A DNA stretch of 64,000 bases from Patescibacteria group bacterium (GTDB lineage: Bacteria; Patescibacteriota; Patescibacteriia; Magasanikbacterales; GWA2-37-8). The stretch is from assembly GCA_022710645.1 (NCBI GenBank), contig JAKLGL010000002.1, positions 212,176 to 276,175 of the forward strand, read 5' to 3'. A program made the translations under genes and the position numbers. The notes below the pieces were generated by a model. The model saw only the letters and a list, made by a program, of their open reading frames with translations. It searched no databases and was not told where the DNA came from. Numbering within the stretch: the stretch's first letter is position 1; every line of letters starts with the position of its first letter. This document shows positions 1 to 28,618 of the stretch, piece by piece.

Positions 1-3000
1 CACTGGGAGAAAAGGTACCTAAAAATTTAATTTTTTCCGCAGATTGCAAAATACTTCCTTTAACACTTAATTTTTCATTTTGAGCTTTGGTGCCGATTCC
101 AATTTTATTGAAATTATATAAATTACTTCCTGAGATATAAATATAATCATTAAGGGCTGTCGCAGACTGGAATTGCCCATCAGAAGATATTGCTATAGAT
201 GTCCAATTTTTTATTCCAGTGGCGGTATTGGTAGCCCAAGTATTACCGTGATCTATTGAGGAAAAAATATAGCCACTTTGTAGTTCAACCGCTGATTGAT
301 ATTTACCGTCAGAGGACATAGCCACATCAGACCATCTGGTTGATTTACCTTTCGCAGACCAGGTATTGCCATAATCAGAAGATATATAAATATAATCCCA
401 GTCAGTAGCTGAACCCACAACTGCGGTTTGATATTTACCATTGGCAGAAATACTTACAGCACTCCAAGCATTTTCTCCGGCTGAAGTGCTAGTAGTCCAA
501 GTAATACCATAATCGGAAGAAACACGGATAGGACCATCCATCTCAGCTAATATTTGATATTTACCATCAGAGGACACGGCTGAATCTGTTGACCCAAAGG
601 CATTAGACTCTGACCAACTACCAGAAATACCATAATTGAAAGATCTAACTATACTACCATTACAAGTAGCCAATTGATATTTACCATCAGAGGACATGGA
701 AATAGAACTGTGGCAACCTGCAAAAGCACCTCTTCCTATACTCCATGTTTTACCATAATCAGAAGATACACGAATTTGATTACCTAAACCTGTGATTGTT
801 TGATATTTACCATCAGAGGACATAGCTGTTTTGGTGTAACCCCAACCCGGTGTAGTTGTTGTCCAGCTATATCCATAATCCGAGGAACTATATAACAAAT
901 TATTGGATGAATTTCCAGCAATTTGATACTTACCGTCAGAGGATATAGATATTGAAGCCCAGTTTATTTTTTGACTATCCGCTTTAATATGATAATCCGA
1001 CCAAACAGAGCCCACATCTATCGCCCAATTGTTTTCAGATATTTTATTTTTTCCAAAATACAATCCTCCTCCTTGATCAAAAATTAATTGATCTCTCACT
1101 GATACTCCGTTACTTGCCACAAACAAAGCACTGGTAGCTTGCCAACTTGCTCCACCTTGATTTACAAGCATTTGTCCAGATATACCAGAGGGTATAATAG
1201 GAGAACCATTTATAAAATAATTCCCAGAAATATTGACATTTCCTCCATAAGAAATATCAACATAGGAGGTATAAATAGGAGAATAATTACTAATCACAGC
1301 TTGAAAATTTCCTTCCGCTGACACAACTATACTTCTCCAAGTATTATTTATAAAATTTTTATTAACCCAAGTATTGCCATAATCTGAGGAAAAATAAATA
1401 CTTCCCTGGTCCGCATCATAACCATTGGATATGGAAATTGCGGTTTGATATTTGCCGTTAGCAGAAATAGCCACATCTTGCCATTTTCTTGCACCAGCAG
1501 AAGTGCTAGTAGTCCATGTATTTCCATAGTCTGAAGAAATATAGATATAATTAGCATCAGCATTCCAATGATTACCCGAAACTACAGTTTGATATTTACC
1601 ATCAGATGATAGAGCAACTGACCTAAACTCTCCGTAATAGCTGCTAAATTTTTGAACAAAAGTATTACCATAATTAGAAGATATGTAAATGTAACCACTA
1701 TAGATAACTGTTTGGTACTTACCATCTGAAGAAATTCCTACTGCAGGATTAGTCCCGGCATAAATCGTGTTGTTCCTTTTCCAAGTATTACCATAATCAG
1801 AAGAGGTGTGGACAAAACCATTCATTGCCACGGCTGTTTGATATTTACCGTCAGCTGAAATGGAAACAGATGACCAATTACCGGAATTATCTGTGGTCTT
1901 GTCTGACCAAGTAGCGCCATAATCAGAAGAAATATATACATCACCATCTCCATCTCCGGCCACAGCAGTCTGATATTTTCCGTTTGAAGAAATAGAAATT
2001 CCTACCCAGCTCCTTTGATCAGAGGAAGTGCTAATAACCCAAGTATTACCATAATCCGAGGATATGTATATATAATCATTACCTTTAGCAAGACTTTGAT
2101 ATTTGCCATCAGATGATATGGCTAAATCTCTCCAAAAAGCATCAAAGGCTTTGGAAGAAGTGACGTTCCAAATAGTTTCCATGTCTGAATTCCACATATT
2201 TTCTGAAACTCTAGTGCGACCAAAATATATTCCACCTTCTTGATTGGATAATAATTGATTATCAAAAAGAGAACTCCCTTGCACAGATAATAAACGCCCT
2301 GGAGCGTTATCACCAATACCAACATTACCACCCAAAATAGCAAAAGTATTATTTTGTGATAATGTTTGTGCGGTAGTGGTGCTCAAATTTATACCGAATG
2401 AAGAGTCGCCAAATACCCCCATCCCCGAACCCATTGCATAAGAAGAAATACCGGTTGAAGTATTATTAACACCTCCTAAGACAATTGAATAATCTCCGGA
2501 AACTAAATTATCTTGACCACCCAATATTACTGAATTTACACCAGAAGCTATACTTCCATACCCACCCACAATTGTCGCCCCCATACCAGAAGCTATATTT
2601 GCTTGACCACCAATAATAGCTGTAAAATAATTTGTTGTTGTGTTGTACCATCCACCTAATATAATTGAATCTCGTCCAAAAGCTTCATTATCATATCCGC
2701 CAATTATAGCAGAACGAAGACCACTAGCTTCATTGCTAAAACCACCACCAATAAAAGAACTTTCTCCCGAAGTTATATTACTATCCCCCCCACCAACAAA
2801 AGAATAGTCTCCTGAAGCTCTGTTTTGCATACCAGCAGCGAAACTCCAATTACCTGCTGTATTACTAAACGCATTAAGCATTGAAATACTGTTTGTTGTG
2901 TTGTTGATAGTTATTCTCCGCGTTGCCTCCCAACCAGAAGAACCATAAAAAAGAGTTTGCCCGGTCATTCCAGATGGCAATGAAGCGCCGGAAATCCCAA

Positions 3001-6000
3001 GCGAACTTGTATTTGTCCAATAAGGCAAAGAAGTGACCGGATTAATCATCAAAACTTGATTTGCTGTTCCACCAATACCGCCAAATTTAAGTGTGCCGTT
3101 ATTGTTGATGTCTAAATCACCAGCTACGGTAAGCAAACTAGATGGCGAAGCTGTGCCAATACCGATTTTGCCATAAGTATAAGAATCGGCAGTGGAGGTA
3201 TAAATATATCCTCGATCTCCCCATTCTCTAGAAACCATGGTTTGATATTTGGCGTCAGCGGACATGGCTACAGATTTAAGCGTATTATAACTAACATAAT
3301 CAGTGGTCCAATTATCACCAAAATTGTTTGAAATATAAATATAATTTGAAGTGATAGCCGTGCGGTGTTTACCATCTGAAGACATGGTAATGTCCACTAG
3401 ACTAGAAACATTAGTGTTTACAGTCCATGTTTGACCATAATCAGTTGAGCTATATATATAACCAGAATCCACAGCAGCAGTTTGATATTTACCATCTGAT
3501 GACATAGCTAGCGATTTCCAGTTTAAATAACCGTAATCAGTTTTAGCAGTCCAGGTTTGTCCATAATCAGAAGATGTGTATAAATATTCCCCATTAACAG
3601 AGGCTGTCTGGTACTTACCATCTGACGATATGCTTACATCGCTCCAATTTCTCCATGTATCGTTGAGTTTAACATTCCATGTGCTACCGAAATCAGAGGA
3701 AATGTATACTACCACATTTTGCAAAACCAATGTTTGATATTTACCATCTGCAGAAATGGCTACGTAACCAGGACCGCCAAAACTATGTATATTTGACCAG
3801 TTTAGTCCATAATTTGAAGAAGTATAAAGATTACCTCCGTTGTTCATAGCAATCTGATATTTACCATCAGCAGACATGGCCACTGAATTGGCTAAATATC
3901 CTTGCCAAGTATAATTCCAAGTTTGTCCAAAATCTGTTGATCTAAATATATAACCATTTTGATTTGCTATTGTTTGGTATTTTCCGTCCTTGGACATGAC
4001 AACATCTTCCCATTGATCATAATATGAAAAATTTTGTTGCCATGATTGTCCAACGTTTGTTTCTTGGAAAGTGTCATTATAAAGCATCGGATCCCAAAGA
4101 GAACCACCTGATGAAATATCAGAAAGTTGATTTCCATTCCAAAACAATTCTCCACCTTGATTGTATAAAGCATTGGTTATATCTCCCGGCAAAGCATCAG
4201 CAATGGTTAAACCATAACCTGTTTGAATTTGATTGTTAAATACAGCATTGCCAGTGAACAAAGAAGATCCGTCAACTGTCAAAAGACTACCTGGAGTGGA
4301 AGTACCAATACCAACGTTACCTAATTCACTTACAGAAATACCACCTTGTGTATTACCGTTGGTATTAATATTTAAAAGACCATTATTACGAATCTTGAAA
4401 GATACAAAATTATTATCATCATAAACTAAACGCAAAGAGTCGGAACCAAAACTTTCTGGAGTTTCATTTAAAATTTCAACTAAAGTAGATGTTGGCATAA
4501 CCAAAGGTGGTCCGTCCATCTGTAAACTACCACCATCAGTTGCTTCGTTGAAAGTTGTAATATTCTCTGCGGTGATAGCGTAATAAGACCAACCTTCTCG
4601 GTCTGTATAGATATTTATCAAATAACCATCCTCATCATCTACATTATTCCAACTCCAACTAATCAAAGTATCATCACTTGGTGTGGTTGTGGTTTGTCCA
4701 AATGGCAAATAATAAACAGGGTCGGAATAAACAATCTCACCGCCAACTTCACGATAAGAATAAACCCGGGCATTTCTTTGTGTCCCTGAAGGAAATCCAT
4801 TTCCACCTCCACTCACCCATTCAACAAAATCTAAATTTGAAGGTGTGCCAAATGTTCTAAATTCAGGCAAAGAATTAAATTCACTAAAAACAGTATTTGT
4901 TGTAAACGAATATAAAAACCAACCCATACCTTGGACATAGCCGTTATACAAATAACCATCAGCACCTTCAACTTCATCCCAACTCCAAACAGCCATATAG
5001 TCAGTATCTGGAGTTGAAGTGGTGTCAGGTGGAATAACATAATAAGTAGGATCAGAATAAATTCTACCATTAGCTGTATCTTTATAACTATAAATTCTAA
5101 CATTTCTTCCGGTTCCAGGCGGAATCATACCTCCCAAAAACGCAGACGCGTCTTCCCAACCTGTTAATTCAATATTTTGTGTGTTATTTACAGTAATGTT
5201 TTGAAAACTAGTGCTACTAGAATATACAGAATAGCTGTTATCCAAAATGCTTAATCTAGCTAAACTATTCAAATCCATTCCTATACCAACATTACCCAAA
5301 AGAGAAGTTCCTTGTTCAGATAAAGTAATAGTTCCTGTAGGGCTTTGGTTAACTGATAATTTTAAATTACCATTATTCAATACTTTGAAGGAAGAAAAAT
5401 TGTTGGTGTCATAAACAAACCGTAGCGAATCAATGCCGTAATCCATAATTCTATTGTTTGAGACATCTGGCGGACCATCATCGTTTATACTACCAGCCAT
5501 AAATTCAGCTAGTTCACTAACTGAATTTGCTGTAGTTGTACCATAATTATCCCAAACCATTCCATCCCCATCAAAATTTCCACCTATATTTAAAAGATAT
5601 CCGTCCACAGTGTCAGCAGAAGCTGTCCAACTCCAATCTATCAAACACCCTTGTTCTGCTGGGTCAGTTGTAGTTGTGATATTACTTGGAAGACCTAGAT
5701 AATTTTGAGAATAATATCTTGTCCCTAATATGTCTTTATAAGAATATATTCTAATATTTCTTTCTACAAAACCTGGCGGAAGCATCCTATAATAATCTTC
5801 TGAACAAACCCATTCATATTGTAAATCTGTTGGCGGACTAAAAGTTTCTGAAGTATAACTATCATCCGCAATAACCACTCTTGAATTATTATCGGTAGAT
5901 GTCCCAATCCCTACATTTCCATTAGCCAAAATACTTAATCGCTCATTTCCGCCACCACTGGCGCTATCAAAAATAGAAAATCTATCTTCAATTTGAGTCA

Positions 6001-7778
6001 AAGACCAAGTACTTGTTCCGAGGTTTATAATATTTGTCCAAACTTCATTCCAGCGAGCATCAGAAGCACCGAGACTATACAAACTCACGTTCCCATCTCC
6101 GCCAGTCATATCTGGTAAAATATTTTGCATTGTTGAAGTGCCGGCTACAGACAAAAGAGTGGTTGGGTTGGTAGTGCCTATACCGACATTACCATTATTA
6201 TCTATCCTCATCCTTTCGTTTGATGCCAAAGTCCCACCAGTATGAAATTTGATAGCGTTTGAAGAATTATTTTCAGCTATACCAATCGCTAATGATTTAT
6301 TTGAAGCATACAGATAGGAATCATTGGCTCCCACAATAGTAAAAAGTGGATTATTATATCCAGAACTATTGATACCTAAATCAACATAATAAGAAGTATC
6401 GGTTCCATTATTGGCTGTGGCAATATAATCAGTAGAAGCATTTCCTCCGGAAGATAAATTTTGATTATTTATTTGTGAATAAGTATTTGTGTTTGCAAAA
6501 AATGAAGCAATCGAATTTGGTAAAGCATTTCCAGCGCCAACTTGCAAAAGACTACCGGGAGTAGTTGTGCCAATACCAACATTACCACCATTAAAATAAG
6601 AAGAGCCATTTGAATTTAAATAAATTTTAGTGGAATTTGTATTTTTAACTGAAATATTTCCAGCACGATTCGCACCTTGACTAAGAGTAACTATACTTTC
6701 TCCGTTATAACCTCTAATATCTAAGGCATTTGTATAATTGGTAGTAACACTTAAAGTTAATAAACTGTTAGGTGCAGTGGTTCCAATTCCAACAAATCCA
6801 GAACTACTAACAAAGATATTATTGGTAGCAGTCCAATCTGCACCATCGTAATAAAGCGTCTGACCAATAGAACCACTTGGTAAAGAACCACCGCCAACAA
6901 TCCCCAAAGTATCTGTTGCTACCCAAGTTGGAGAACCACTATTTAACTGCAAAATCATACCATCTGATGATGGTACAATAAAATCATAGGCAGAACCATT
7001 GGAATAAACCAAAGATCCATTACTTCCAAGAGTAGAAGTTCCTGTACCACCTAGAGAAGTTAGCAAAATTCCAGAAACTTCAGAAGTAGATGATAAATCA
7101 ATAGTACTAGTAGACCAAACACCCCCAGAAACTTTTACTATACCAGTCCAATCAGAAGAGTTTGCACCAACGCCACCATAAGCCGAACTTATAATATCAC
7201 CTTGCCAAGTACCTGAAGTTATTAAACCAAAAGTTGAATTTCCAACAACTGACAAAAATCCTCCAATATATTGATTGGTAGAAGTAATATAAGTAAATTG
7301 AGCGGTTGTTGCAGTTTCCGTACCAATAGCTCCCGGAGCAGCCCAAGTTTTTCCTTCTAATTGTGAAGATGTAAAAGCAGCCGGCACGGCACCGAGAATT
7401 TTTCTCGGACTCATGGTTTCCAAAGAAGAAGTTCCGATGCTAACTTCAAGATAAAGTGTTTGATTAAAATCAACACCCGTCAAACTGGAAACATCTCCAA
7501 GCATCACCGAGAATAAACCATTACGCAAATTTACCAAATACGGAGTTGATGTTCTTTCTTCCGACCAAACAGCTGTACCGCCTGTTTCTTGATTAAACAA
7601 TTCAAATTTCATCATGTAATCTCCATCGGAAACAGGTCTATTGTTTAAATCAAAAAGTTTTCCTTGATAATTGATTTCAGGATTAAAAGCAGCATTTGCG
7701 GTTGCAAAAAAAGACATGGCAAATACCAAAAAAATAGGTAAACCTAAAATTACATTTTTCCTCCAAAAATTGCGCATA
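1..7778 (-). CDS. Giant secreted surface protein (partial; C-terminus beyond window start). It has a signal peptide, tail-fibre-like GNVGIGTTxP beta-helix repeats, three Fn3-like repeats, YadA/Hep_Hag-like G-rich repeats, and more than 20 BNR/Asp-box SxDxGxTW repeats.
   Basis: Manual translation of the reverse strand from the ATG at 7776-7778 (MRNFWRKNVILGLPIFLVFAMSFFATANA...) gives an uninterrupted frame to position 1. Recurring ISSDGKYQT...SSDYGNTWT modules keep the frame throughout. The gene is not in the ORF track because its stop lies outside the window. Confidence 0.8.
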
Positions 7779-7838: not shown

Positions 7839-7950
7839 TTTTTTGCAATCGCTGAAAATAGCTAAGATAGGCAAAAAAAAAGGCAAAACTGTGGATAAGT
7901 TTTACCGCCAGTCCATAACGTCTTTAATGTCTATAAAGTCTATAAAATAT

Positions 7951-8053: not shown

Positions 8054-9088
8054 TTACTTCATTATCTTCCACTTCTCTTCTTCGGAGATTAGATAATAAG
8101 TGTCTGTTTTTTTATTCGCAGAAATTGTAATGCTATAAACTTTTGGAAATAACAAATCGTATTTTTCACTTTTCCAGTTATCTACCACGGAAATATTTGT
8201 TATTACCACATTTTGATCTTCTACGTTATTCGGCGCTAAAATAGTTTTATAAGCGGAAATAAATTTATTATTATCAATTTTATTTTGAACATCGTTTGGT
8301 AGATTTTTATAAATATCACCAAATTTTCCTCTGGCTTCGGCATCCATAACGGAAATCAATAAATTATACATGTCCGGAGAAAAATACCAAGATAATAATT
8401 GATCGTTTTGTTTTGATGACAAAGATAAAATAACAGCCTTCTTTAAATTTGGATGAGTCAGATAAATACCTTCTCCTGATTTAACTTTATTAAAAACAAA
8501 ATAACCGGAAGCCGAAGTTTTAACAACCGTATCTCCGGAACTCAAATCAGCTTTAACACCTTGTAAAGTCAAAGGATCTATTAATTGACCTGAAACTTTA
8601 TTCAAAATCAATTCCGGAGCATCTTTCACTATTTTAAAATATCCGAGTTTAAAATTAAAAAACAAACCGGCAAACAAAGCCGCACCCACCAATAACATAG
8701 CAATAATAACATTAATTCCGAAATATCTGGTTTGTCTCGGAAAACCCATAGCCTCAGCATCCGCTTTTCTGGCCAAACGAACCATATTAATTGCAGCGAC
8801 AGCTACCAATAAAACCAAAACCCAGATGGTAATAGTGGAAATCGCCGGAACTACATTTGTTACTCTGTCTATCAAACCGAAATTTTCACTGCTGGTCGGA
8901 GTTGTTTCTTGTTTTAAAATATAAATCAAAGCTTCGTCGGTATTTCCGTATTCATCCTCCACCATAATAACATGAGGTCCTTCGGACAAACTTTTATCAA
9001 TCATTAAATCCCAATTACCAGAAGAATCGCTTTGCAAATCAAAAGCGTAAGGTTGAGGATTGCTGTTGGTTGTGGTGTTTTCTTCCAT
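8054..9088 (-). CDS. Hypothetical membrane protein (two TM helices, ~190-aa C-terminal extracytoplasmic domain), last gene of the surface operon
   Basis: 344-aa ORF. Hydrophobic segments are ISTITIWVLVLLVAVAAI and NVIIAMLLVGAALFAGLFF. There is a 3-nt gap to the upstream gene. Confidence 0.6.
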   Translation of the reverse strand: MEENTTTNSNPQPYAFDLQSDSSGNWDLMIDKSLSEGPHVIMVEDEYGNTDEALIYILKQETTPTSSENFGLIDRVTNVVPAISTITIWVLVLLVAVAAINMVRLARKADAEAMGFPRQTRYFGINVIIAMLLVGAALFAGLFFNFKLGYFKIVKDAPELILNKVSGQLIDPLTLQGVKADLSSGDTVVKTSASGYFVFNKVKSGEGIYLTHPNLKKAVILSLSSKQNDQLLSWYFSPDMYNLLISVMDAEARGKFGDIYKNLPNDVQNKIDNNKFISAYKTILAPNNVEDQNVVITNISVVDNWKSEKYDLLFPKVYSITISANKKTDTYYLISEEEKWKIMK

Positions 9089-9093
9089 ATAAA

Positions 9094-11496
9094 TTAGTAA
9101 ATCACCGCTTTTATTTTACTTTTTGGTGTTGCGTTGCCGTTGACATAAACACGACTGCCGGTTTCGTTTTGCACATTGAGTATTTTCAAAAAAGTTTTTG
9201 GTTTGGCTGGAGTTGTAACCGGTTTTGGTTTTACCGGAACGGAAGGTTTTACCGTCGGTACCGGGCATTCTTTAACAATCTCACGCACTACTTCAAATTG
9301 CGGAGACATTAATAATTCCGGACCGTAAACTTCATTACCGCCGGCTTTAGTCATCGGACGAAAATAATAAACTTTGCCTTTTTCCAAATTATTTATCAAA
9401 ACCGCATGATAAACGGAATTATCCAATCTTTCTATAGTGCTATAAGAGTAACCCAAATTTGTGTTTGTTTGATTCACGCTTTCTACCGGAGAAGTTCCAT
9501 AAACCACTCGCGAAGATCCGGCTATTGAAGAATACCAAGTTATCAATACGGTAGAACCATCAACTTGCGTAGCAAACGCATTATTCGGACTTATGTTTAA
9601 CAATGTCGGCGAACTTCCACCAGAACTCCCTCCCCCGCAAGCACCGCCCCCGGTTCCCACACATTTAAGCAAAGAAGTGCTCCAGGAAGTGTTACTGCCG
9701 CAATAAGAAGATCCGACGCAAGATCCCCCGGTAGAAACAGAATAAACATATCTGCTCATCACATTACCGGAATTGTCTCGCGTATAAACTATAACCGGAA
9801 TAGATTCACCGGCAATAAAATCATTTTGCGGATCCAAAACAAAAGCATAATCGTTTATATTTCCGGTACGAGCTGTTGTGTCTCCGGCATAATTACCTCC
9901 GTTAAAATCGGAAGAAGTGGAGAAAGATATCGTTTTACCATTGATTGATAAACTTCCGGCACCACCTCCATTGGTATAATAATCTCCGTTTATATAAAAA
10001 ATCGTATTACTCAAATCTATCCCTGTTCCGGTATCTTTGAGATGCAAAGAAATCTTATCATTTAAAGCCACAGAAGCATCATTTAAAGGAGATAGATTAT
10101 CAACAAAAGGGCTATCTGTATCAGCTGTGGAAAAAGTATAGTTATCAGTGGTCATAATATTTCCGGCCAAATCAGCGCAATCATACACACTTACCGATAC
10201 AGTCTCATTTTGCGCAAAATCCGTAGTCGGATTTATCGTAAATCGATAACCATAATCTATAGCTGTTACTGTAACCGTTCCCAAACCTTGTTGAAAAGTA
10301 GTTAAAGCAAAACTCGGAGAAGAAACATTTATTCGGCAAGTGCCAGCATTAACTCCCGTACCGGAGATATTACCGGGATATGTTTTTTTATCATTTAAAT
10401 CAATGACGATATTCGTATTAACACTGTTACTACCACTGCTTCTAACCGGGCTTTCCGCCACCACACGAGGCGCGACAGTATCCGCTTCAGTAATGAAAGT
10501 CCATGTTTTACTATCCATAATGTTCGGACCATTGGTATCACCTAACTGATTTTGCGCAGATGAAGCATAATCACGATAATTATTTACCACTACAGTATAA
10601 GTGGTGTTATATTCCCAATTACGCATATCACCGGAAATTCCGGAAGGAGAGCTCGGATTAATCGTAACATTACAGAGATTTGTTCCCCAAACACCAGAAC
10701 ATCCATAACTAGCTGACCCTATTTGACTCACGGAATTAAAAGTAATATTACCGGTAGCAGTATCTACACCTGTGCCAACACCGCTATTATCTCCCTCTCC
10801 GTTTTTACTATCTCTCAAATCAAAATAATAATCGTCATCAATCGCCACCCCCGATCCTCCTGAAACAGGAGACGGGTTTAAAGCGTAAGGTTTTTTTGTA
10901 TCAGCCCATAGATGTAATGAAAAATCTTCAGCATCATTCATAATATCTTCGCCATTGTAAGAAATATTACTTTCCGTGGTACTTCCAAAAGAACCTGTAT
11001 TAATATTTAAAGTCGTCGGAGCACCGGTGCCATAATTAACAGCTGTCGGTTTAATCACGGTAAATTGAACCGAACCAAAAGTACCTATTCCCGAAGAATT
11101 CCCCGAAGTACGATATCCGGTTGAACGAGTACGCCAAATATTACCTGAAACAAAAACTGTATTTTGTCCGGACCATACCGGAAAATAAGTTCCTGTATTT
11201 AAATTTGAAGAAGTTACAACCGAAGCATCATGATCTATCCAAATATTAGCCGAATTGGTATGTTCAGAATTTATCTGCATGGTAGCGGTAAAAGTCTGAC
11301 CGACATAATAATAATTATAATCAGACGGATTCCCAGTTCCCCCGTCACCAGTATTATCCGCTCCAGTAAAAGGTGATGATAGAAGTTGAAACCAATTATT
11401 TCCCGAAGGGGTAGCAGAATAAACAAGATTTGCAAACAAAAAAATACCGGCCAACAAGAACAGTGAAAAAAGTGTTTTCTTTTCTTTAAAAACCAT
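9094..11496 (-). CDS. Large secreted surface protein (signal peptide, G/S/T/N-rich beta-type domains, Fn3/PAP-like module, Pro/Lys-rich linker, Cys cluster)
   Basis: 800-aa ORF. N-terminus is MVFKEKKTLFSLFLLAGIFLFANLVYSA. It has an Fn3-like TVLITWYSS...VYYFRPMT module and a C-terminal PVPTVKPSVPVKPKPVTTPAKPK segment. Confidence 0.65.
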   Translation of the reverse strand: MVFKEKKTLFSLFLLAGIFLFANLVYSATPSGNNWFQLLSSPFTGADNTGDGGTGNPSDYNYYYVGQTFTATMQINSEHTNSANIWIDHDASVVTSSNLNTGTYFPVWSGQNTVFVSGNIWRTRSTGYRTSGNSSGIGTFGSVQFTVIKPTAVNYGTGAPTTLNINTGSFGSTTESNISYNGEDIMNDAEDFSLHLWADTKKPYALNPSPVSGGSGVAIDDDYYFDLRDSKNGEGDNSGVGTGVDTATGNITFNSVSQIGSASYGCSGVWGTNLCNVTINPSSPSGISGDMRNWEYNTTYTVVVNNYRDYASSAQNQLGDTNGPNIMDSKTWTFITEADTVAPRVVAESPVRSSGSNSVNTNIVIDLNDKKTYPGNISGTGVNAGTCRINVSSPSFALTTFQQGLGTVTVTAIDYGYRFTINPTTDFAQNETVSVSVYDCADLAGNIMTTDNYTFSTADTDSPFVDNLSPLNDASVALNDKISLHLKDTGTGIDLSNTIFYINGDYYTNGGGAGSLSINGKTISFSTSSDFNGGNYAGDTTARTGNINDYAFVLDPQNDFIAGESIPVIVYTRDNSGNVMSRYVYSVSTGGSCVGSSYCGSNTSWSTSLLKCVGTGGGACGGGSSGGSSPTLLNISPNNAFATQVDGSTVLITWYSSIAGSSRVVYGTSPVESVNQTNTNLGYSYSTIERLDNSVYHAVLINNLEKGKVYYFRPMTKAGGNEVYGPELLMSPQFEVVREIVKECPVPTVKPSVPVKPKPVTTPAKPKTFLKILNVQNETGSRVYVNGNATPKSKIKAVIY

Positions 11497-11532
11497 ACTT
11501 CTTATTTTTTAACGTTCTTATTATAACACGTT

Positions 11533-12189
11533 TTATTCTCCTTGCATATCCAAATTTTTGAGCAACAAACTCAAATCTACGGAATTCACAACAACATCTT
11601 GATTCACGTTAGCTCGAATTCCGCGAGTAGTCAGATCGTTTGCATCCAAATCATTTAACATTATACTCAAATCAACAGAATTGATCTCATTATCTCCCAA
11701 AGTATTTGGATCAACTCCCAATCCGCTAATATCTCCAGCTAAAAGACGCACTGGGCCCGTAACACCGTCGGCATTATCGGTTGTCGTAAAATTAAAAATA
11801 TTTAAACCATCTGGTATGGAAATATTTGCCAATTTTTTGGATAAATGTTGATGAGTTTTGATATAGACATCAAAATTACCCTCTGGAAGCGTATCTATGA
11901 TAATCGGCGATAATCTTTCACCTGCCACTGTGGTAGTTAACAAAGAGTCCATTTTATAAGCAATATTTTCCGTGCCCGGATCTTTAAAATACAGATAGAA
12001 AGTCGTATCCCAATTTGTACTACTAGCCCCTACTCTGCCTTCGGGTATCGCCCATTTAACTTCAGCTCCGACCTGTCTAGTAACGGTTAGTTCCACAGGA
12101 AAGCTTACGGAAGCGGCGGAAACAAAACTTAAACCGACGAAGGCGGTTAGAAAAGTTAGAAAGATAAATTTTGAGAAAGAAAACAACAT
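11533..12189 (-). CDS. Secreted protein with a C-terminal dockerin-like Ca-binding repeat pair
   Basis: It has a signal peptide. LGDNEINSVDLSIMLNDL and VNQDVVVNSVDLSLLLKNL match the dockerin DxNxDGxVNxxDlxlLkkyl pattern. Confidence 0.55.
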   Translation of the reverse strand: MLFSFSKFIFLTFLTAFVGLSFVSAASVSFPVELTVTRQVGAEVKWAIPEGRVGASSTNWDTTFYLYFKDPGTENIAYKMDSLLTTTVAGERLSPIIIDTLPEGNFDVYIKTHQHLSKKLANISIPDGLNIFNFTTTDNADGVTGPVRLLAGDISGLGVDPNTLGDNEINSVDLSIMLNDLDANDLTTRGIRANVNQDVVVNSVDLSLLLKNLDMQGE

Positions 12190-12214
12190 GTGTTTAAAAT
12201 TTCAAATTTCCAAA

Positions 12215-12982
12215 TTAGTTCATATACGCCGTAATCGTAATCTGCGCTCGGTATTTTCCCGAAACTTGCAGATGTTGATTTCCACTTTCCGCTTGAAAAT
12301 GAATTGTAGTAGTGGTGCCTTCCGGATCATTATAGTTTTCTGATGAGGCAATTGTTTCTAAAGTTTGAGACAAAGGTCCCCAACAAGCTCTTTCCGTATC
12401 ATTACCGTCAACAACATTACAAACACCGCTATTGTCTCTGTATTTAGAAACAATATCTATTCCTTCCGGAGTAAAACCAAAAACCGAAGTAGTTGGCGCA
12501 ATATCCCAAACAAAATCAGGGGCGCTTCCTACCGGTATATAATCATCAAAATAATAGGTGGTTGTATTGATATGTTGCAGAGCCGGCGAGGTGCTGGCAT
12601 TGATTTGTAAAGTATAACCAAATTCATTAGTCGTCATCACATGGGCATAAGAAGTACCTGTAGCATTTCCTCCGGTTAAACCGGGAATAGATGGTTCAAG
12701 AGTGGTAGAACTTGGTGCTGATAAAGCTATAAAAGCTGTTTTCATCTGTTGATATCCGGCGTGAAGAATAAAATTTGTACTACTACTGTAACCGGTGGCA
12801 ATTTCACCCATACTGTCTTCTTCTTGAAAACTATCAGAATTACTATATCCTCCGCCAAAATTTATAGAATCCTGTTGCATCTTAAAATTTGTACTTGTCA
12901 TTACTTGTGCCAAAACTGGCGTCGAGAAGACGCCAGTTAAAATAGCCGTAATAATTAAGATTTTTATTCCCGCCCTGACCAT
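12215..12982 (-). CDS. Small secreted protein, paralog B (WxL-like candidate)
   Basis: It has a signal peptide and an IPGLTGGNATG motif. Its ...QITITAYMN C-terminus parallels the 14062..14628 product. Confidence 0.55.
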   Translation of the reverse strand: MVRAGIKILIITAILTGVFSTPVLAQVMTSTNFKMQQDSINFGGGYSNSDSFQEEDSMGEIATGYSSSTNFILHAGYQQMKTAFIALSAPSSTTLEPSIPGLTGGNATGTSYAHVMTTNEFGYTLQINASTSPALQHINTTTYYFDDYIPVGSAPDFVWDIAPTTSVFGFTPEGIDIVSKYRDNSGVCNVVDGNDTERACWGPLSQTLETIASSENYNDPEGTTTTIHFQAESGNQHLQVSGKYRAQITITAYMN

Positions 12983-12986
12983 ATCT

Positions 12987-13991
12987 TTATGCTTGAGGTT
13001 TTTGTCCGATATTTATATGAACGTTTTTCTTAATCCAAACGATAAGCCAGATCAACAAAACTATACCAAGTAATGTCGGAACTACAACTTTCCACGGCAT
13101 TACCCAAAAAGTAACAATTTGCCTATCGATAACATCTATTTCTTTATTGGCATTATCGGCAGTATAACCACGATTCAAAAAGATTTCCGCTTTATAACGT
13201 CCGAGCATAAATCCATGATCCCAAGATTTTTTCATAGATCTCTCGCTACCGGGTAAAACATAATACGGGTCTATTTTTACTCTATCAACAACCGTACCGT
13301 AAAGATTTTTTATCTCCACATAACCATAAGGATTTAAATAGACGCTTCCGTTGTTTTTATAAGTATAAAACAATTCCATCGGTCCTTTTTGATATAATTT
13401 TTTATCAGTTTTAAAAGCGGTCAAAGCACCGTCTTCTTTTACCGGACCGCTGACACGAACAAAATACAAAACAGCAATTCTGGATTTGACATCAACACCG
13501 CCTTTTATTAAAGTCGGATCTGTTTTTTGATCTTCTACGTCAGGCTGCGTAGTCACTATCACCGAACCATACAAACCACCGGGAACAGCATCTTTTGGGG
13601 CCGAAATCTGCACGGCAATGGTTGCTCTATCTCCACTTTGAAGAGTAAATTCCATGGCTTCCGGTTTAATATAGTCTTTCAAAGAATAAGGCCCTTTCAA
13701 AAGACCAAGGAGTTGAATTGGCGAATCAATTTCATTTTTACCTTGAAAATCTTCTAATTCCAATTTGAATTTGCGCGCTTGAGGAAATCTGTTGGTTACA
13801 TTAATAAATTTCATTACCGATTGCGATGGATCCAAAACAATTTCTTGTTTACCAGGACCAACCACAAAATCGTTGGCCAAATTTACATTTTCCAAATTTT
13901 CTATTTTAATAGCTTTAGCCGGAATGCTATTGCCAAATAAAAAAACCAAGGCGATTACTAAAAGTCCCCCTTTAAGAAATCGTGTATTCAT
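12987..13991 (-). CDS. Cell-surface protein with DUF916/DUF3324-like (CscA-like) architecture: signal peptide, ~300-aa beta-rich ectodomain, C-terminal TM anchor with a basic tail
   Basis: N-terminus is MNTRFLKGGLLVIALVFLFG. The C-terminal TM is VPTLLGIVLLIWLIVWIKKNVH. Confidence 0.5.
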   Translation of the reverse strand: MNTRFLKGGLLVIALVFLFGNSIPAKAIKIENLENVNLANDFVVGPGKQEIVLDPSQSVMKFINVTNRFPQARKFKLELEDFQGKNEIDSPIQLLGLLKGPYSLKDYIKPEAMEFTLQSGDRATIAVQISAPKDAVPGGLYGSVIVTTQPDVEDQKTDPTLIKGGVDVKSRIAVLYFVRVSGPVKEDGALTAFKTDKKLYQKGPMELFYTYKNNGSVYLNPYGYVEIKNLYGTVVDRVKIDPYYVLPGSERSMKKSWDHGFMLGRYKAEIFLNRGYTADNANKEIDVIDRQIVTFWVMPWKVVVPTLLGIVLLIWLIVWIKKNVHINIGQKPQA

Positions 13992-14061
13992 AGATTGATT
14001 AAATTAATTTAACTTTATAAGATGAACGAAAAATTCGTTCATCTTAAAAATAAACTAAAGA

Positions 14062-14628
14062 TTAGTTCATTTGAGCTGTGATGGTAACCAAAGAAGCATA
14101 TACTCCGGTTGGTTGTCCTTTTGAACTACCTACGAAAGCTCGAAAATTCATTGTGGAAGTTGTTCCAGCAAAAGAAGTTTCTGTACTACTTGCGGTAATA
14201 CTTTGAGGAGTACCCGGGGTAAATGCAGTCCAAGAACCTCCATCATAATTATAAGAGAATTCTGCAACATCTGCAGCATCTGTAGTGCCATTAGCAAAAG
14301 TATCTCCATTTCCATTGGTCAAAGTAGTAGCATCAGCTGTCATAGAAAAACCATCACTATTGTTGGTTCTTACAAGACATTCTTTTGCACCTGTAGCTGT
14401 ACCACCAGTCATACCAGGTATCGGTAATGAAAGAGTGGTAGTAGATAAATCACAGGTAAGTGTGATTTCAGCGGTAACTTCTACTTCTACCGGATATTGT
14501 AAGCTAATATCAGCTCCAATGGTACTGGTACTTACTGTATCAGCGCTAGCAAAGCCACCTTCAAAAAGCATAAAGCCATTGAACATAACTACTGCGCCGA
14601 TTAAAACATAAGACAAAATCTTTTTCAT
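14062..14628 (-). CDS. Small secreted protein, paralog A (WxL-like candidate)
   Basis: It has a signal peptide and an IPGMTGGTATG motif. Its C-terminus is VTITAQMN. Confidence 0.55.
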   Translation of the reverse strand: MKKILSYVLIGAVVMFNGFMLFEGGFASADTVSTSTIGADISLQYPVEVEVTAEITLTCDLSTTTLSLPIPGMTGGTATGAKECLVRTNNSDGFSMTADATTLTNGNGDTFANGTTDAADVAEFSYNYDGGSWTAFTPGTPQSITASSTETSFAGTTSTMNFRAFVGSSKGQPTGVYASLVTITAQMN

Positions 14629-14877
14629 AATTTATATATGAATGTACTATTTTTTATGACCCGTTTATAAGACGGGAAAATTTAATAATCGATTATTAAC
14701 TCTTTTTTGCCTTAAAAATCACCCCGACCTTTCCTTTGGTTTTTTAAGACAACTATATTATAACATTTTTTTGTTTTATTCCCTATTTAGTCGGTTGTGG
14801 ATAACTAGCAAAGAGTTTGTAAAGCCTGCCTGCCGGTAGGCAGGTCCATAAAGTCACCAAAAAGAAAGTTGCTGTTT

Positions 14878-15939
14878 TTACCTCTTCTTTGTCGTTGTTG
14901 GTGTTGTTGTTGCTACTTTCTCTTCTGGCAAGGTGGTGGTAGCGTTTGGCACAGTCGGCACTTCTATATTAGCCCCATCAACTTCTGTTTTTGTCGGTTT
15001 AAAAGGAGTTTTGTCACAATAAAAATTCATTTCCGTACAACCCAACTGCAACCATTCATAAATACGACTCGGGTCCTCATCTATTGCTATATAGACTTGA
15101 TAAACATACGGAAATTGCTTGAGTGTATTTTCTATTTGAGATAAAAATTGAGCACTACCGCAAGAACTGTTGGCGCTCGGAATCAAAGTGCGCAAATCTT
15201 TCATATTTACCAAAGCTACATTTTCAACCACACGAACATTTCTCAATATTTTGGCGGTTGTGCTATTGAAAAAAGATTGATAACCGTTTTCTTTTTCTTG
15301 ATCTGACGGTCCGGCAAATAAAGCACGCAAAGTTTGTTCTTCATAGGAAGCCGTACCACTGACCATGCGTTCTACAGGATAAACCAATCTGCAATCCAGC
15401 ATTTCCGGATTTTCTTTGATATTGCTGAAATAAATTTTAAATTTATCGATTTTAAATTCTTTTCCCGAATCTATTTTGAAATTTTGCAAAACCTTCCCCA
15501 CTTCTCTATTTAATAATCCAAAATGTTCCATCTGCGGAGATGAATAAGGATTATCCAAAGTTCGAACCAACACAAAAACATAATCATTGGTATAAGAGAA
15601 AACTTGTTCGTTTAAAATCAAGTCTTTAGAATTTTTATAATTTTGCCAAGTTTCAAAAGGATAAACATACAGACGAAAAATGGAATATTCTTGTCCCGGT
15701 AATTGATTGTAAACAAAGGATAAAACACCAATATTATTTCGTTCTTCTTCCGTCAAACTGAAATTACCAAGCCAACTATCGGGAAATTCCAAAGAAAAAC
15801 CGTATTTATCGGAATGATAATTTTTTTTGGTATAACCCTCCATCTTCTCTGGGCCGTTTTCATTCTTAATACATCCGGTTAAAACAAAGCTCAATGTCAA
15901 AAATAATATTATAAAAATCGTCTTTTTCAATAAAGGCAT
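14878..15939 (-). CDS. Lipoprotein with a GerMN-like domain
   Basis: Lipobox is LTGC. The LVYPVER...TLRALFAGPS...VYQVYIAIDEDPS region resembles GerMN/Gmad2. Confidence 0.55.
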   Translation of the reverse strand: MPLLKKTIFIILFLTLSFVLTGCIKNENGPEKMEGYTKKNYHSDKYGFSLEFPDSWLGNFSLTEEERNNIGVLSFVYNQLPGQEYSIFRLYVYPFETWQNYKNSKDLILNEQVFSYTNDYVFVLVRTLDNPYSSPQMEHFGLLNREVGKVLQNFKIDSGKEFKIDKFKIYFSNIKENPEMLDCRLVYPVERMVSGTASYEEQTLRALFAGPSDQEKENGYQSFFNSTTAKILRNVRVVENVALVNMKDLRTLIPSANSSCGSAQFLSQIENTLKQFPYVYQVYIAIDEDPSRIYEWLQLGCTEMNFYCDKTPFKPTKTEVDGANIEVPTVPNATTTLPEEKVATTTPTTTKKR

Positions 15940-16002: not shown

Positions 16003-16029
16003 TAAAAAAGCCCCCGAAAAACGAGGGCT
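16003..16029 (-). terminator. Intrinsic terminator of the upstream ncRNA
   Basis: The reverse strand reads AGCCCTCG-TTTTT-CGGGGGCT followed by TTTTTT. Confidence 0.5.
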
Positions 16030-16633
16030 CCGACTAAAGAACTGTAGCGGACAAGGAGGAGACTTTCGATCGTCCAAATTTCCGATGATCAGTCGGAAAC
16101 ATAGACAGGACAGATCTAGTCCTTTGCAAGGTTGGGCCCGGTATTGACCCTTTCAAAACATCGGTAAATACCTCACCTTTGCTTGAGGTACGGGAAAGGT
16201 CAGAGCTTCGCCGTCATTTCAGAGAGAAGGCAAATTAATGGCTTGCCTTGTCGCAACTCTCTCTTTTATTCAGGAAAAGCACCCTTCACAAAGAAGTTCT
16301 CAAAGGAGCGGTCGGCAACACCTATTTTGGTGAATTTTTTTGACAACACCTCTGAGTGGGTGTTGAAAAACAGACTGTGCCGAAATACGGCGTAGCGTCT
16401 TTCTTTGTACTCGCGGATTTTGGACCTATTTTCTGCATAGAGTCCAACCGACTTACACCCTATTACGGGAAGTACGATTTACAACCTATTACGGCGTAGA
16501 AAGACGTACTAATCTGCCAATTCAAACGGATGGAAAGGATGATTCCGTCATCCGATTTTTGCCAAACCGCGATGATCTTTGACGATCATCACTTCTTTTA
16601 CCACCGACATTTTGTCTAAAGAACAATCCCCTC
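16030..16633 (-). ncRNA. Candidate structured ncRNA (~600 nt) of unidentified class, GC-enriched, promoter-to-terminator defined
   Basis: No ORF of 60 aa or more exists on either strand. GC content is clearly above the flanks. It has nested hairpins (GAGAGAG...CTCTCTC enclosing AAGGCAA...TTGCCTT), a long-range pairing CGTCTTTC/GAAAGACG, and direct repeats TACGGCGTAG and CCTATTACGG. Confidence 0.35.
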
Positions 16634-26134: not shown

Positions 26135-26138
26135 AGTT

Positions 26139-26912: not shown

Positions 26913-26913
26913 A

Positions 26914-28614: not shown

Positions 28615-28618
28615 AAAC

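What the first reader, a model, noticed from the sequence alone, without database searches (positions are those of the whole stretch)
8054..15939. Seven-gene surface-protein operon with Csc/WxL-like architecture
The operon runs, in transcription order:
- a GerMN-domain lipoprotein (14878..15939);
- small secreted paralog A (14062..14628);
- a protein with a signal peptide, ~300-aa ectodomain and C-terminal TM anchor (12987..13991);
- small secreted paralog B (12215..12982);
- a dockerin-like protein (11533..12189);
- an 800-aa secreted protein (9094..11496);
- a 2-TM protein (8054..9088).

The layout small secreted / membrane-anchored DUF916-DUF3324-like / small secreted / large surface protein is the hallmark of Firmicutes csc (cell-surface complex) WxL loci, not described for CPR-like lineages as far as I know. 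The two small paralogs share IPG[LM]TGG.ATG and a C-terminal [IL]TITA.MN, which sits where WxL proteins carry LTW[ST]L, but no clear W-x-L motif is present. This may therefore be a divergent or novel analogue rather than a true homolog. It lies directly upstream of giant surface protein 1, suggesting one large cell-envelope/attachment locus.
Basis: partly seen in the sequence, partly recalled or inferred. Interest (0 to 1): 0.75.

Follow-up and report, generated by a model that had tools for sequence, protein, structure and literature searches.

The report
Usher-less pilus operon with WxLIP-like chaperone
This gene cluster of a Candidatus Magasanikbacteria (CPR) genome most likely builds a thin surface fibre from two small pilin-like proteins with the help of a membrane-anchored chaperone, and that chaperone is a true relative of a protein of the "WxL" surface-protein clusters of gut Gram-positive bacteria, which ties together two systems so far described separately.

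Summary
All seven ORFs exist at the stated coordinates on the minus strand, and terminator-like hairpins bracket them.

- **Not supported:** the two small paralogs are not WxL proteins by HMM or profile-profile tests. Their fold matches chaperone-usher pilins (CsuA/B, CupE, CfaB, FimG, PapE). Paralog B is a distant homologue of PamT, from the CPR "Pam" pilus described in a 2026 preprint.

Across 82 CPR genomes the conserved unit is: small pilin, chaperone, PamT-like pilin, FN3 membrane anchor, then a large protein sharing the giant protein's N-terminal module. The GerMN, dockerin-like, 800-aa and 2-TM genes are lineage-specific additions.

Best reading: an usher-less, chaperone-assisted donor-strand fibre. 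It is a compact Parcubacteria-type variant of the Pam system that links Pam, WxL/Csc and chaperone-usher systems. Polymerisation itself is inferred, not shown.

The parts
14062..14628 (-). Small pilin A (188 aa). It has a signal peptide, an N-terminal amphipathic strand (residues ~38-51, ISLQYPVEVEV) that is the candidate donor strand, and a pilin-type Ig-like domain (residues ~59-188) ending exactly at the C-terminus (TITAQMN).
   Evidence: Homologous to the pilin domain of B. An A/B-type gene precedes the chaperone gene in 70 of 80 related loci, with a median gap of 21.5 nt. There is a weak full-length SCPU (archaic chaperone-usher pilin) hit, E=0.22.
12987..13991 (-). Membrane-anchored chaperone-like protein C (334 aa). 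In order: signal peptide; beta-sandwich domain 1 (28-149, DUF916/WxLIP_PGBD-like); variable low-confidence loop (150-169); highly conserved strand SRIAVLYFVRVSG (170-182); beta-sandwich domain 2 (to 297); TM helix (300-323).
12215..12982 (-). PamT-like pilin B (255 aa). It has a signal peptide, a strongly conserved 58-aa N-terminal segment (26-83, nt 12734-12907) that is predicted disordered in the monomer, and a pilin-type domain (84-255, nt 12218-12733).
1..7777 (-). Giant secreted protein X (more than 2592 aa; it runs off the window). Its N-terminal ~135-aa module (nt 7358-7777, AFNPEINYQGKL...GLFSVMLG...FNQTLYLEV...PRKILGAVPAAF) is the conserved part. BNR/sortilin-type repeats lie further in.
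   Evidence: A homologue of the N-terminal module lies downstream of the pilin genes in 54 of 82 loci, with variable C-terminal parts and no C-terminal TM. The protein has its own promoter-like site at 7858-7830.
9094..11496 (-). Secreted 800-aa protein F. It has Big_5 Ig-like domains, an FN3-like (Pur_ac_phosph_N) domain, a Cys-rich stretch, a Pro/Lys linker and a C-terminal half of an Ig domain. It is a lineage-specific accessory and probably part of the membrane anchor.
   Evidence: Pfam. Present in only 5-6 related loci. It shares its FN3-like domain with the 'R' anchor family of other loci (hhalign 89%, E=2.2e-6).
8054..9088 (-). 2-TM membrane protein M (344 aa). Its N-terminal ~55 aa supply the other half of the Ig domain begun by F. 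The C-terminal domain is of unknown function.
   Evidence: TM segments at 76-94 and 120-138. The fused F C-terminus plus M N-terminus match Big_13 over profile positions 10-93 of 102. The split is conserved in 5 genomes.
11533..12189 (-). Secreted 218-aa protein D with a C-terminal dockerin-like duplicated Ca-loop motif. It is a lineage-specific accessory.
   Evidence: Dockerin_1 is sub-threshold. The motif is conserved in 6 homologues. Present in only 6 loci.
14878..15939 (-). GerMN-domain lipoprotein G (353 aa). It is the first gene of the transcription unit but is not a conserved partner of the system.
   Evidence: Pfam Germane E=1.4e-9 and a lipobox. Homologues occur next to the system in only 2 of 82 loci. 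A 249-nt gap separates it from gene A.
16007..16031 (-). Terminator-like hairpin upstream of the cluster (10 pairs plus a T-run). A promoter-like site follows at 16001-15973.
7882..7906 (-). Terminator-like hairpin (9 pairs plus T9) after gene M and before the giant gene.

Best explanation
The locus encodes an usher-less, chaperone-assisted, donor-strand type surface fibre. It is a compact relative of the CPR 'Pam' pilus.

**Shown here.**
- C has the architecture signal peptide, two beta-sandwich domains, C-terminal TM helix.
- C is a sequence and structure homologue of Firmicute WxLIP (DUF916).
- C superposes over both domains on PapD-type pilus chaperones.
- A and B are paralogs whose domain has the chaperone-usher pilin fold and ends exactly at the C-terminus.
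- B is a remote homologue of PamT.
- The block A-C-B, followed by an FN3 membrane-anchored protein and a large protein with the giant's N-terminal module, is conserved in dozens of CPR species.

**Inferred mechanism.**
1. A and B are exported by Sec.
2. The membrane-tethered C caps their open pilin groove with its conserved strand 170-182, which follows the flexible hinge loop. This is donor-strand complementation, as AlphaFold2 predicts for WxLIP-WxL in the literature.
3. The N-terminal strand of the next subunit then replaces the chaperone strand (donor-strand exchange). In A this strand is the perfectly alternating ISLQYPVEVEV; in B it is the conserved SxNFxLxAGYQQ linker.
4. The result is a thin fibre that grows at the membrane without an usher, because CPR cells have no outer membrane.
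5. A is the likeliest repeating subunit. B is a tip or adaptor subunit.
6. The giant protein X, through its conserved N-terminal module, is a candidate cargo or adhesin displayed by the fibre.
7. The fibre is held at the membrane by C itself and/or by the FN3 anchor. In this lineage the anchor is split into secreted F plus membrane protein M, joined by a split Ig domain.

The likely function is attachment to a host cell or a surface.
For: **Chaperone C.**
- AF2 model with pLDDT 88.5.
- PF06030 is hit by 31 of 37 relatives.
- PDB 9i1y at E=1e-7.
- hhalign 97%, E=1e-10.
- A variable loop (conservation 0.25) is followed by the most conserved strand (0.74).

**Pilins A and B.**
- Foldseek independently gives CfaB, CfaE, PapE, CS17, FimG and CsuA/B.
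- The most conserved 58 residues of B have pLDDT ~45, against ~95 for the domain. This is the signature expected of a segment that folds only in a partner.
- PamT homology.

**Relatives elsewhere.**
- Some relatives carry an inserted N-terminal domain, as PamA/B do, and that domain is homologous to the Tafi pilus protein TafC.
- Large proteins with the whole B module at their C-terminus exist.

**Synteny and literature.**
- Synteny across 82 loci.
- Published model of the Pam system.
- Published AF2 prediction that a WxLIP strand completes the WxL sandwich.
Against: - No complex was modelled.
- The window has no two-domain major pilin like PamA or PamB.
- It has only one chaperone-like gene, where M. 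amalyticus has PamC, PamD and PamR.
- The PamT score is 39 bits against an equivalog cut-off of 240, and the signal lies only in the N-terminal segment.
- Foldseek E-values for the pilin are weak (3e-3 to 1e-1).
- The B-type conserved segment also occurs internally in large proteins, so it is a linker rather than a free N-terminal extension.
- No ATP-synthase neighbourhood is present (motif scan only).
Confidence: 0.65

Rival explanations
1. A static Csc/WxL-type cell-surface complex rather than a fibre. The membrane-anchored WxLIP-like protein permanently holds one small protein by strand complementation. The small proteins serve as a docking platform for large surface proteins (X, F, D), and nothing polymerises.
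For: - C is a true WxLIP homologue.
- Published work interprets WxLIP as binding and stabilising WxL on the surface.
- The window has only single-domain small subunits and no PamA/B-type major pilin.
- The conserved N-terminal module on variable large proteins looks like an attachment tag.
Against: - The subunits have the fold of polymerising pilins.
- Each subunit carries a conserved strand N-terminal to the pilin domain.
- B is homologous to a component of a filament observed experimentally.
- Relatives share a domain with Tafi pilus proteins.
Confidence: 0.2
2. A chaperone-free donor-strand fibre of the TasA, archaeal Tafi or cannulae type. A and B self-polymerise, and C is only the terminator and membrane anchor (PamR/RbmA-like), not a chaperone.
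For: - PamR has the same overall architecture: two beta-sandwich domains plus a TM helix.
- TasA, TLP-2, CanX and DUF1102 fibres appear among the structural hits of B.
- Tafi pili assemble without a chaperone.
Against: - C aligns over both domains with PapD-type chaperones, but over only one domain with RbmA.
- Most related loci already have a separate FN3 plus TM protein in the anchor position.
- The flexible loop followed by a conserved alternating strand in C is the hallmark of a donor (G1-type) strand.
Confidence: 0.1
3. A fortuitous cluster of unrelated secreted proteins that does not form a functional system.
For: - G, D, F and M are found next to the core in only 2-7 of 82 loci.
- None of the seven proteins has an experimentally tested function.
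Against: - A-C-B keeps its order, strand and very short gaps (medians 21.5 and 6 nt) in 70-75 of 80 species-level genomes.
- Fold assignments of pilin and chaperone are complementary.
- Gene calls that fuse C with B occur.
Confidence: 0.03

Closest known systems
Pam pilus of Candidatus Mycosynbacter amalyticus ('CPR-type pilus'; Troman et al., bioRxiv 10.64898/2026.03.03.709456; NCBIfam NF058579 PamT)
   Same: - It is CPR-specific.
- All components are Sec-exported.
- Its pilins have a truncated Ig-like C-terminal domain preceded by a conserved linker or donor strand.
- It has PapD/FimC-like chaperones that keep a C-terminal TM helix.
- It has no usher.
- It has an FnIII-type membrane anchor and an associated very large 'tail-fibre-like' protein.
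- Paralog B is a detectable PamT homologue.
   Different: - This lineage is Magasanikbacteria/Parcubacteria-type, whereas the paper found Pam mainly in Saccharimonadia and Microgenomatia.
- The pilins here are single-domain (188 and 255 aa), not the 39-55 kDa two-domain PamA/PamB.
- There is one chaperone-like gene instead of PamC plus PamD.
- The anchor is split into F plus M in this lineage.
- No ATP-synthase neighbourhood is present.
- The PamT score is far below the equivalog cut-off.
- The chaperone's DUF916 kinship is not mentioned in the paper.
Csc / WxL clusters of Lactobacillales and Listeria (CscA = WxLIP, i.e. DUF916 + DUF3324 + TM; small and large WxL proteins)
   Same: - C is a homologue of WxLIP in sequence, fold and architecture.
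- The gene order small secreted, anchored, second secreted or large protein is shared.
- Published AF2 models predict that a WxLIP strand completes the client's beta-sandwich.
- Relatives of B include large proteins that carry the small-protein module at their C-terminus.
   Different: - The client proteins show no detectable WxL domain and no W-x-L motifs.
- There is no DUF3324 HMM hit.
- There is no LPXTG protein or sortase.
- The clients have the pilin fold and a PamT link.
- The host is an ultrasmall CPR bacterium.
Classical, alternative and archaic chaperone-usher pili (Pap/Fim, CFA/I, Csu/CupE with SCPU pilins)
   Same: - The subunit fold matches; the best structural matches are CsuA/B and CupE.
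- The chaperone has the two-domain PapD-like fold.
- The subunits end at the last strand, and each has an N-terminal amphipathic strand.
   Different: - There is no usher and no outer membrane.
- The chaperone is membrane-anchored.
- There is no sequence-level match to PapD_N. The match to SCPU reaches only E=0.22 in protein A, and no member of the B family hits SCPU.
Archaeal and Bacillus donor-strand fibres (Tafi/ABP pili, cannulae, TasA)
   Same: - They are beta-sandwich subunits joined by strand donation in cells without an outer membrane.
- The inserted domain of related two-domain CPR pilins is homologous to TafC.
   Different: - Those fibres assemble without a dedicated chaperone, and some use Tat export.
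- They have no WxLIP-like partner.

Membership tests
Csc/WxL cluster | A WxLIP protein with an N-terminal DUF916 (PF06030, PGBD) domain | tested here: met
Csc/WxL cluster | A second WxLIP domain, DUF3324 (PF11797, HBD) | tested here: inconclusive
Csc/WxL cluster | A C-terminal transmembrane helix on the WxLIP protein | tested here: met
   AF2 helix at 300-323 and a hydrophobic segment.
Csc/WxL cluster | At least two WxL-domain proteins (PF13731, dual W-x-L motif) in the cluster | tested here: not met
   No PF13731 hit at E<=1 in any of the seven proteins, nor at E<=0.5 in 34 B-family members. hhalign of the pilin domain and the A-family against 12 genuine WxL domains gives 0.2-0.5%. No W-x-L motif in A or B.
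Csc/WxL cluster | An LPXTG-anchored protein or sortase in the cluster (frequent, not universal) | tested here: not met
   No LPxTG-like motif in any of the eight proteins.
Pam (CPR-type) pilus | A PamT protein (NCBIfam NF058579 equivalog) | tested here: inconclusive
   The homology is significant but remote: 39.2 bits, E=4.9e-10, against a cut-off of 240. 33 of 34 relatives hit. The signal survives removal of the signal peptide and lies in the N-terminal segment. B is a homologue, not an equivalog.
Pam (CPR-type) pilus | Two-domain major pilins (NTD, donated linker strand, truncated Ig-like CTD) such as PamA/PamB | tested here: not met
   Only A and B in the window carry the pilin domain, and both are single-domain. 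Two-domain variants exist in related loci: L054 has 464- and 619-aa forms.
Pam (CPR-type) pilus | A PapD/FimC-like chaperone with a C-terminal TM helix | tested here: met
   Fold-level only. C superposes over two domains on SafB, YadV, CsuC, CfaA, FimC, EcpB and CupB2 and has a TM helix. A direct comparison with PamC/PamD was not possible.
Pam (CPR-type) pilus | A PamR-type anchor (FnIII domains plus a C-terminal TM helix) | tested here: inconclusive
   The window has no single such protein. 67 related loci have an FN3-like protein in that position, with a C-terminal TM in 49 of 66. In the window, F (FN3-like) plus M (TM) occupy the position.
Pam (CPR-type) pilus | Assembly by donor-strand exchange into a filament | not testable with these tools
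   No multimer prediction was possible. The support is indirect only.
Chaperone-usher pili | An outer-membrane usher (PF00577) | tested here: not met
   No usher hit among the seven proteins at E<=1, and none among the called genes of related loci.
Chaperone-usher pili | A pilin subunit with an incomplete Ig-like fold | tested here: met

The most novel reading that the evidence does not exclude
The Firmicute Csc/WxL clusters, the CPR Pam pili and this widespread Parcubacteria-type A-C-B-R-X locus may be branches of one ancient, usher-less chaperone/donor-strand assembly system of bacteria without an outer membrane. On this reading WxLIP (DUF916-DUF3324) is a membrane-anchored PapD-like chaperone. 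WxL loci would then also work by donor-strand complementation or exchange and may build fibres. The CPR system would display giant adhesins through a dedicated N-terminal module.
Probability: 0.35. Interest if true: 0.8.

Novelty: new variant of a known kind. Interest (0 to 1): 0.6.

Why it matters
CPR/Patescibacteria live attached to other cells, and how they attach is largely unknown. The Pam pilus was reported only in 2026, from one Saccharimonadia species.

- **Distribution.** A compact relative of that system is conserved in at least 80 species-level genomes of the Magasanik-, Buchanan-, Falkow-, Kaiser-, Nomura- and Taylorbacteria/Paceibacteria groups. Its pilin family has 2347 cluster representatives.
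- **Link to cargo.** The system is genetically tied to the giant surface proteins typical of these genomes.
- **Link to WxL clusters.** Its chaperone is a bona fide homologue of WxLIP. This gives a testable mechanistic hypothesis (chaperone-type donor-strand complementation) for the enigmatic WxL/Csc clusters of enterococci, listeriae and lactobacilli, which are implicated in virulence and adhesion.
- **Evolution.** It suggests where chaperone-usher-like assembly may have existed before, or without, an outer membrane.

Tried and rejected
**Tests of the WxL idea.**
1. WxL membership of the small paralogs was rejected. The tests were Pfam PF13731 on the window proteins and 34 relatives, and hhalign against 6 and then 12 genuine WxL domains taken from Enterococcus, Lactococcus and Lactiplantibacillus plasmids. 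All were negative.
2. I noted short pattern resemblances: TDN..GYxLxI against TDNRG..GWxLxV, and Y...ITITA against Y...LTWxL. They carry no statistical support.
3. A solved WxL-domain structure was sought with an E. raffinosus WxL sequence. None was found.

**Searches that found nothing.**
4. Single-sequence PDB searches of B and C gave nothing. Only the C family profile found WxLIP.
5. The giant's N-terminal module is not a pilin domain: hhalign gives 2.5% and 4.3%. It has no PDB, Pfam or PHROG match, and its homologues are all unnamed fragments.
6. The C family has no meaningful NCBIfam hit, so no PamC/PamD/PamR-type model matched. The library's contents could not be listed.
7. An ATP-synthase neighbourhood, reported for pam loci, was not found in the window by a motif scan.

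**Alternative readings excluded.**
8. A programmed frameshift or sequencing error at the F/M junction was rejected. The gaps are 1, 4, 6, 1 and 5 nt, and the frame offsets differ between genomes.
9. C-B 'fusion' proteins (P0361, P0374) look like read-through gene calls. The B part keeps its signal peptide, so they were not used as Rosetta-stone evidence.

**Resources that were unavailable.**
10. The afdb50 fold library was not available.
11. The Pam preprint's supplement holds no sequences, so PamA-E and PamR could not be compared directly.
Full report
**Observation**

The seven ORFs exist exactly as listed, all on the minus strand with ATG starts. Every large ORF of the 64-kb window is on that strand, and GC skew is negative throughout. 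The window comes from a Candidatus Magasanikbacteria MAG: the 334-aa protein is 100% identical to NCBI's P5230_03470.

Intergenic gaps, in transcription order, are:

| Junction | Gap |
|---|---|
| G to A | 249 nt |
| A to C | 70 nt |
| C to B | 4 nt |
| B to D | 25 nt |
| D to F | 36 nt |
| F to M | 5 nt |
| M to the giant gene (ATG at 7777) | 276 nt |

Terminator-like hairpins at 16031-16007 and 7906-7882 bracket the seven genes. A promoter-like site (7858-7830) precedes the giant gene. A seven-gene transcription unit is therefore plausible, with the giant gene as a separate adjacent unit. These are consensus matches only.

**The anchored protein, C (12987-13991)**

- **Sequence, window protein.** Pfam gives only a sub-threshold DUF916/WxLIP_PGBD hit (E=0.0011).
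- **Sequence, family.** Of 37 aligned relatives, 31 hit PF06030, best E=5.3e-8. NCBI already names some relatives 'DUF916 domain-containing'. A family profile finds solved E. faecium WxLIP (9i1y/9i25) at E=1e-7. Against seven genuine WxLIPs fetched from Firmicute plasmids, hhalign gives 97%, E=1e-10 over 198 columns, which reaches into the second domain. PF11797 (DUF3324) is never hit.
- **Structure.** The AF2 model is confident (pLDDT 88.5). It shows a signal helix, two beta-sandwich domains and a TM helix at 300-323.
- **Hinge.** Between the domains lies a variable, low-confidence loop (150-169; conservation 0.25). It is followed by the most conserved strand, SRIAVLYFVRVSG (0.74). This is the arrangement of the F1-G1 loop and G1 donor strand of pilus chaperones, and apparently of the WxLIP hairpin that published AF2 models insert into WxL. 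That correspondence is an inference.

**The small paralogs, A and B**

- **Paralogy.** It is real: hhalign 97.8% for the single sequence, and 99.9% (E=2e-37) family against family, covering A 38-188 and B 64-255.
- **Not WxL.** There are no PF13731 hits, hhalign against 12 WxL domains gives 0.2-0.5%, and there is no W-x-L motif.
- **PamT link.** B hits NCBIfam NF058579 'CPR-type pilus protein PamT' at E=4.9e-10, far below the equivalog cut-off. So do 33 of 34 relatives. The signal survives removal of the signal peptide and resides in the 58-aa N-terminal segment.
- **Structure of B.** AF2 gives a pilin domain at pLDDT ~95. The N-terminal segment, although the most conserved part (0.69 against 0.59), has pLDDT ~45. 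That is what one expects of a strand that folds only in a partner.
- **Sequence features.** A carries a perfectly alternating hydrophobic/polar strand after its signal peptide (ISLQYPVEVEVTAEITLT). Both proteins end two to three residues after the last strand.

**Published context**

Troman et al. (2026 preprint) solved the Pam pili of Ca. Mycosynbacter amalyticus. According to that paper:
- The pilins have an N-terminal domain, a donated linker strand and a truncated Ig-like C-terminal domain.
- PamT is a single-domain tip subunit.
- PamC and PamD are PapD/FimC-like chaperones with a C-terminal TM helix.
- PamR is an FnIII anchor with a TM helix.
- There is no usher.
- A 'tail-fibre-like' protein is conserved in the neighbourhood.

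The paper does not mention WxL or DUF916. I found no paper linking WxL to donor strands or pilus chaperones.

**Conservation**

A scan of one genome per species returned 80 loci encoding a C relative, which with two fetched earlier gives 82. They come from Magasanik-, Buchanan-, Falkow-, Jackson-, Kaiser-, Nomura-, Taylor-, Zambryski- and Campbellbacteria and from Paceibacterota. Several bins carry evidently generic or wrong names.

- In 70 of 80 loci a small pilin gene precedes C (median gap 21.5 nt). In 75 of 80 a B-type gene follows it (median gap 6 nt).
- In 54 of 82 loci a large protein lies downstream whose first ~135 residues are homologous to the giant protein's N-terminus (AAFNxxINYQGKLT...GLFSVMLG...FNQTLYL.V...PRK.LGAVPAAF). 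Its remaining sequence varies, and it has no C-terminal TM.
- Between B and this protein most loci have a fifth conserved gene, which I call R. It has a median length of 512 aa, a signal peptide, Cys-rich repeats, an FN3-like domain and, in 49 of 66 cases, a C-terminal TM helix. That is the PamR architecture.
- G is adjacent in only 2 loci. D, F and M are adjacent in 5-7 loci, all Magasanik/Buchanan-type. In some of these the F-M pair is inverted.

The conserved system is therefore A-C-B-R-X. The window's lineage lacks R.

**F and M**

F shares R's FN3-like domain (hhalign 89%, E=2.2e-6). F ends with half of an Ig-like domain and M begins with the other half. The fused junction matches Big_13 over profile positions 10-93 of 102 (E=0.0029), whereas M alone matches 54-92 (E=0.036).

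The split is conserved in five genomes. The gaps are 1-6 nt and the frame offsets differ, so it is not a frameshift or an error. M has two TM segments, and the loop between them is positively charged. I infer that F plus M together replace R as a membrane anchor joined by beta-strand complementation.

**Wider family**

The B profile finds 2347 representatives (875 at E<=1e-10).
- Some are large proteins of 365-2187 aa with diverse N-terminal domains and the whole B module at the C-terminus. This parallels 'large WxL' proteins and two-domain pilus adhesins.
- L054 encodes 464- and 619-aa variants whose inserted domain is homologous to TafC of the haloarchaeal strand-donation Tafi pili.

**Mechanism**

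The best-supported reading (0.65) is an usher-less, chaperone-assisted donor-strand fibre that grows at the cytoplasmic membrane.
- C is a tethered chaperone and possibly the basal cap.
- A is the likely repeating subunit and B a tip or adaptor subunit.
- R, or F plus M in this lineage, is the anchor.
- X is a displayed cargo or adhesin.

What is shown: the folds, the homologies, the architectures and the synteny. What is inferred: strand complementation, polymerisation, subunit order and the role of X.

Rivals:
- A static WxL-type surface complex (0.2).
- A chaperone-free fibre in which C serves only as anchor (0.1).
- A fortuitous cluster (0.03).

**Verdict**

The Csc/WxL interpretation is partly supported: right for the anchored protein and the layout, wrong for the small proteins.

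The locus is a new variant of a kind first described in 2026. Its added value is the WxLIP-chaperone link, the broad Parcubacteria-type distribution, the association with giant proteins and the split anchor.

Noticed in passing
window 9094-9200 (C-terminus of F) and 8920-9088 (N-terminus of M): A single Ig-like (Big_13-type) domain appears to be split between two adjacent genes. F ends ...ILNVQ...VYVNGNATPKSKIKAVIY, and M starts ...YAFDLQSDSSGNWDLMIDKSLSEGPHVIMVEDEYGNTDEALIYILK. The split is conserved in five genomes, with gaps of 1-6 nt and different frame offsets, so it is a natural split domain rather than a frameshift.
   Followed up: partly
related loci, e.g. L002:11828-13171 and L076:7695-9257: A fifth conserved gene ('R') lies between the PamT-like pilin and the large X protein in 67 of 82 loci. 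It has a median length of 512 aa, a signal peptide, Cys-rich repeats, an FN3-like domain and a C-terminal TM helix. The window lacks it, and F plus M occupy its place.
   Followed up: partly
window 7358-7777 (N-terminus of the giant protein): An uncharacterised ~135-aa N-terminal module (INYQGKL / GLFSVMLG / FNQTLYL / PRK.LGAVPAAF) is shared by large CPR proteins with unrelated C-terminal parts. One of them (L054:9230-11089) ends in a GFRCVR motif. The module has no Pfam, PDB or PHROG match, and its database homologues are mostly contig-end fragments.
   Followed up: partly
L054:427-1821 and L054:1989-3848 (a Paceibacterota MAG): Two-domain relatives of paralog B (464 and 619 aa) carry an inserted domain that hits NCBIfam TafC, the tip protein of haloarchaeal Tat-fimbriae, at E=5.8e-16 and 1.8e-10. 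This links CPR pilins to archaeal strand-donation pili.
   Followed up: partly
proteins P0405 (2187 aa), P0467 (1205 aa), P0362 (670 aa) and P0390 (365 aa): These large proteins have diverse N-terminal domains (FN3 repeats, LamG-like regions, long beta-helix-like repeats). Each carries the complete B module, i.e. the conserved 55-aa segment plus the pilin domain, at its extreme C-terminus.
   Followed up: no
proteins P0361, P0374 and P0365: These gene calls join the chaperone-like protein, including its TM helix, to the B pilin, including its signal peptide, as one 450-580 aa product. They are probably read-through or recoded stops between two genes that lie only a few nt apart.
   Followed up: no
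window 12215-12982: NCBI's record calls this gene as 221 aa (P0121, P5230_03465), starting at an internal Met. That removes the signal peptide and part of the conserved N-terminal segment. Relatives are ~255 aa, which supports the longer ORF.
   Followed up: no
window 55455-63839 and 54673-55416: A second giant secreted protein (2794 aa) has TIG, Big_5, Laminin_G_3 and VWA domains. It lies next to a 247-aa TSP3-repeat protein. It has no pilin module and no X-type N-terminal module.
   Followed up: no
window 24125-31383: A fermentative energy-metabolism block lies here: ADP-forming acetyl-CoA synthetase-like protein, PFOR alpha and beta subunits, [FeFe]-hydrogenase large subunit and a NuoF-like flavoprotein. 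Further along are cell-wall and division genes (Mur ligase, PBP2, FtsA, FtsZ).
   Followed up: no
loci L003, L008 and L010 (labelled 'uncultured Gammaproteobacteria'), L038 (labelled 'Nanoarchaeia') and many labelled 'uncultured Candidatus Saccharibacteria': The record titles of several MAGs that carry this CPR-specific locus look like generic or wrong taxonomic labels. L003 is 76% identical to the window's chaperone and has the same eight-gene order. Taxon names taken from these titles should not be trusted.
   Followed up: no
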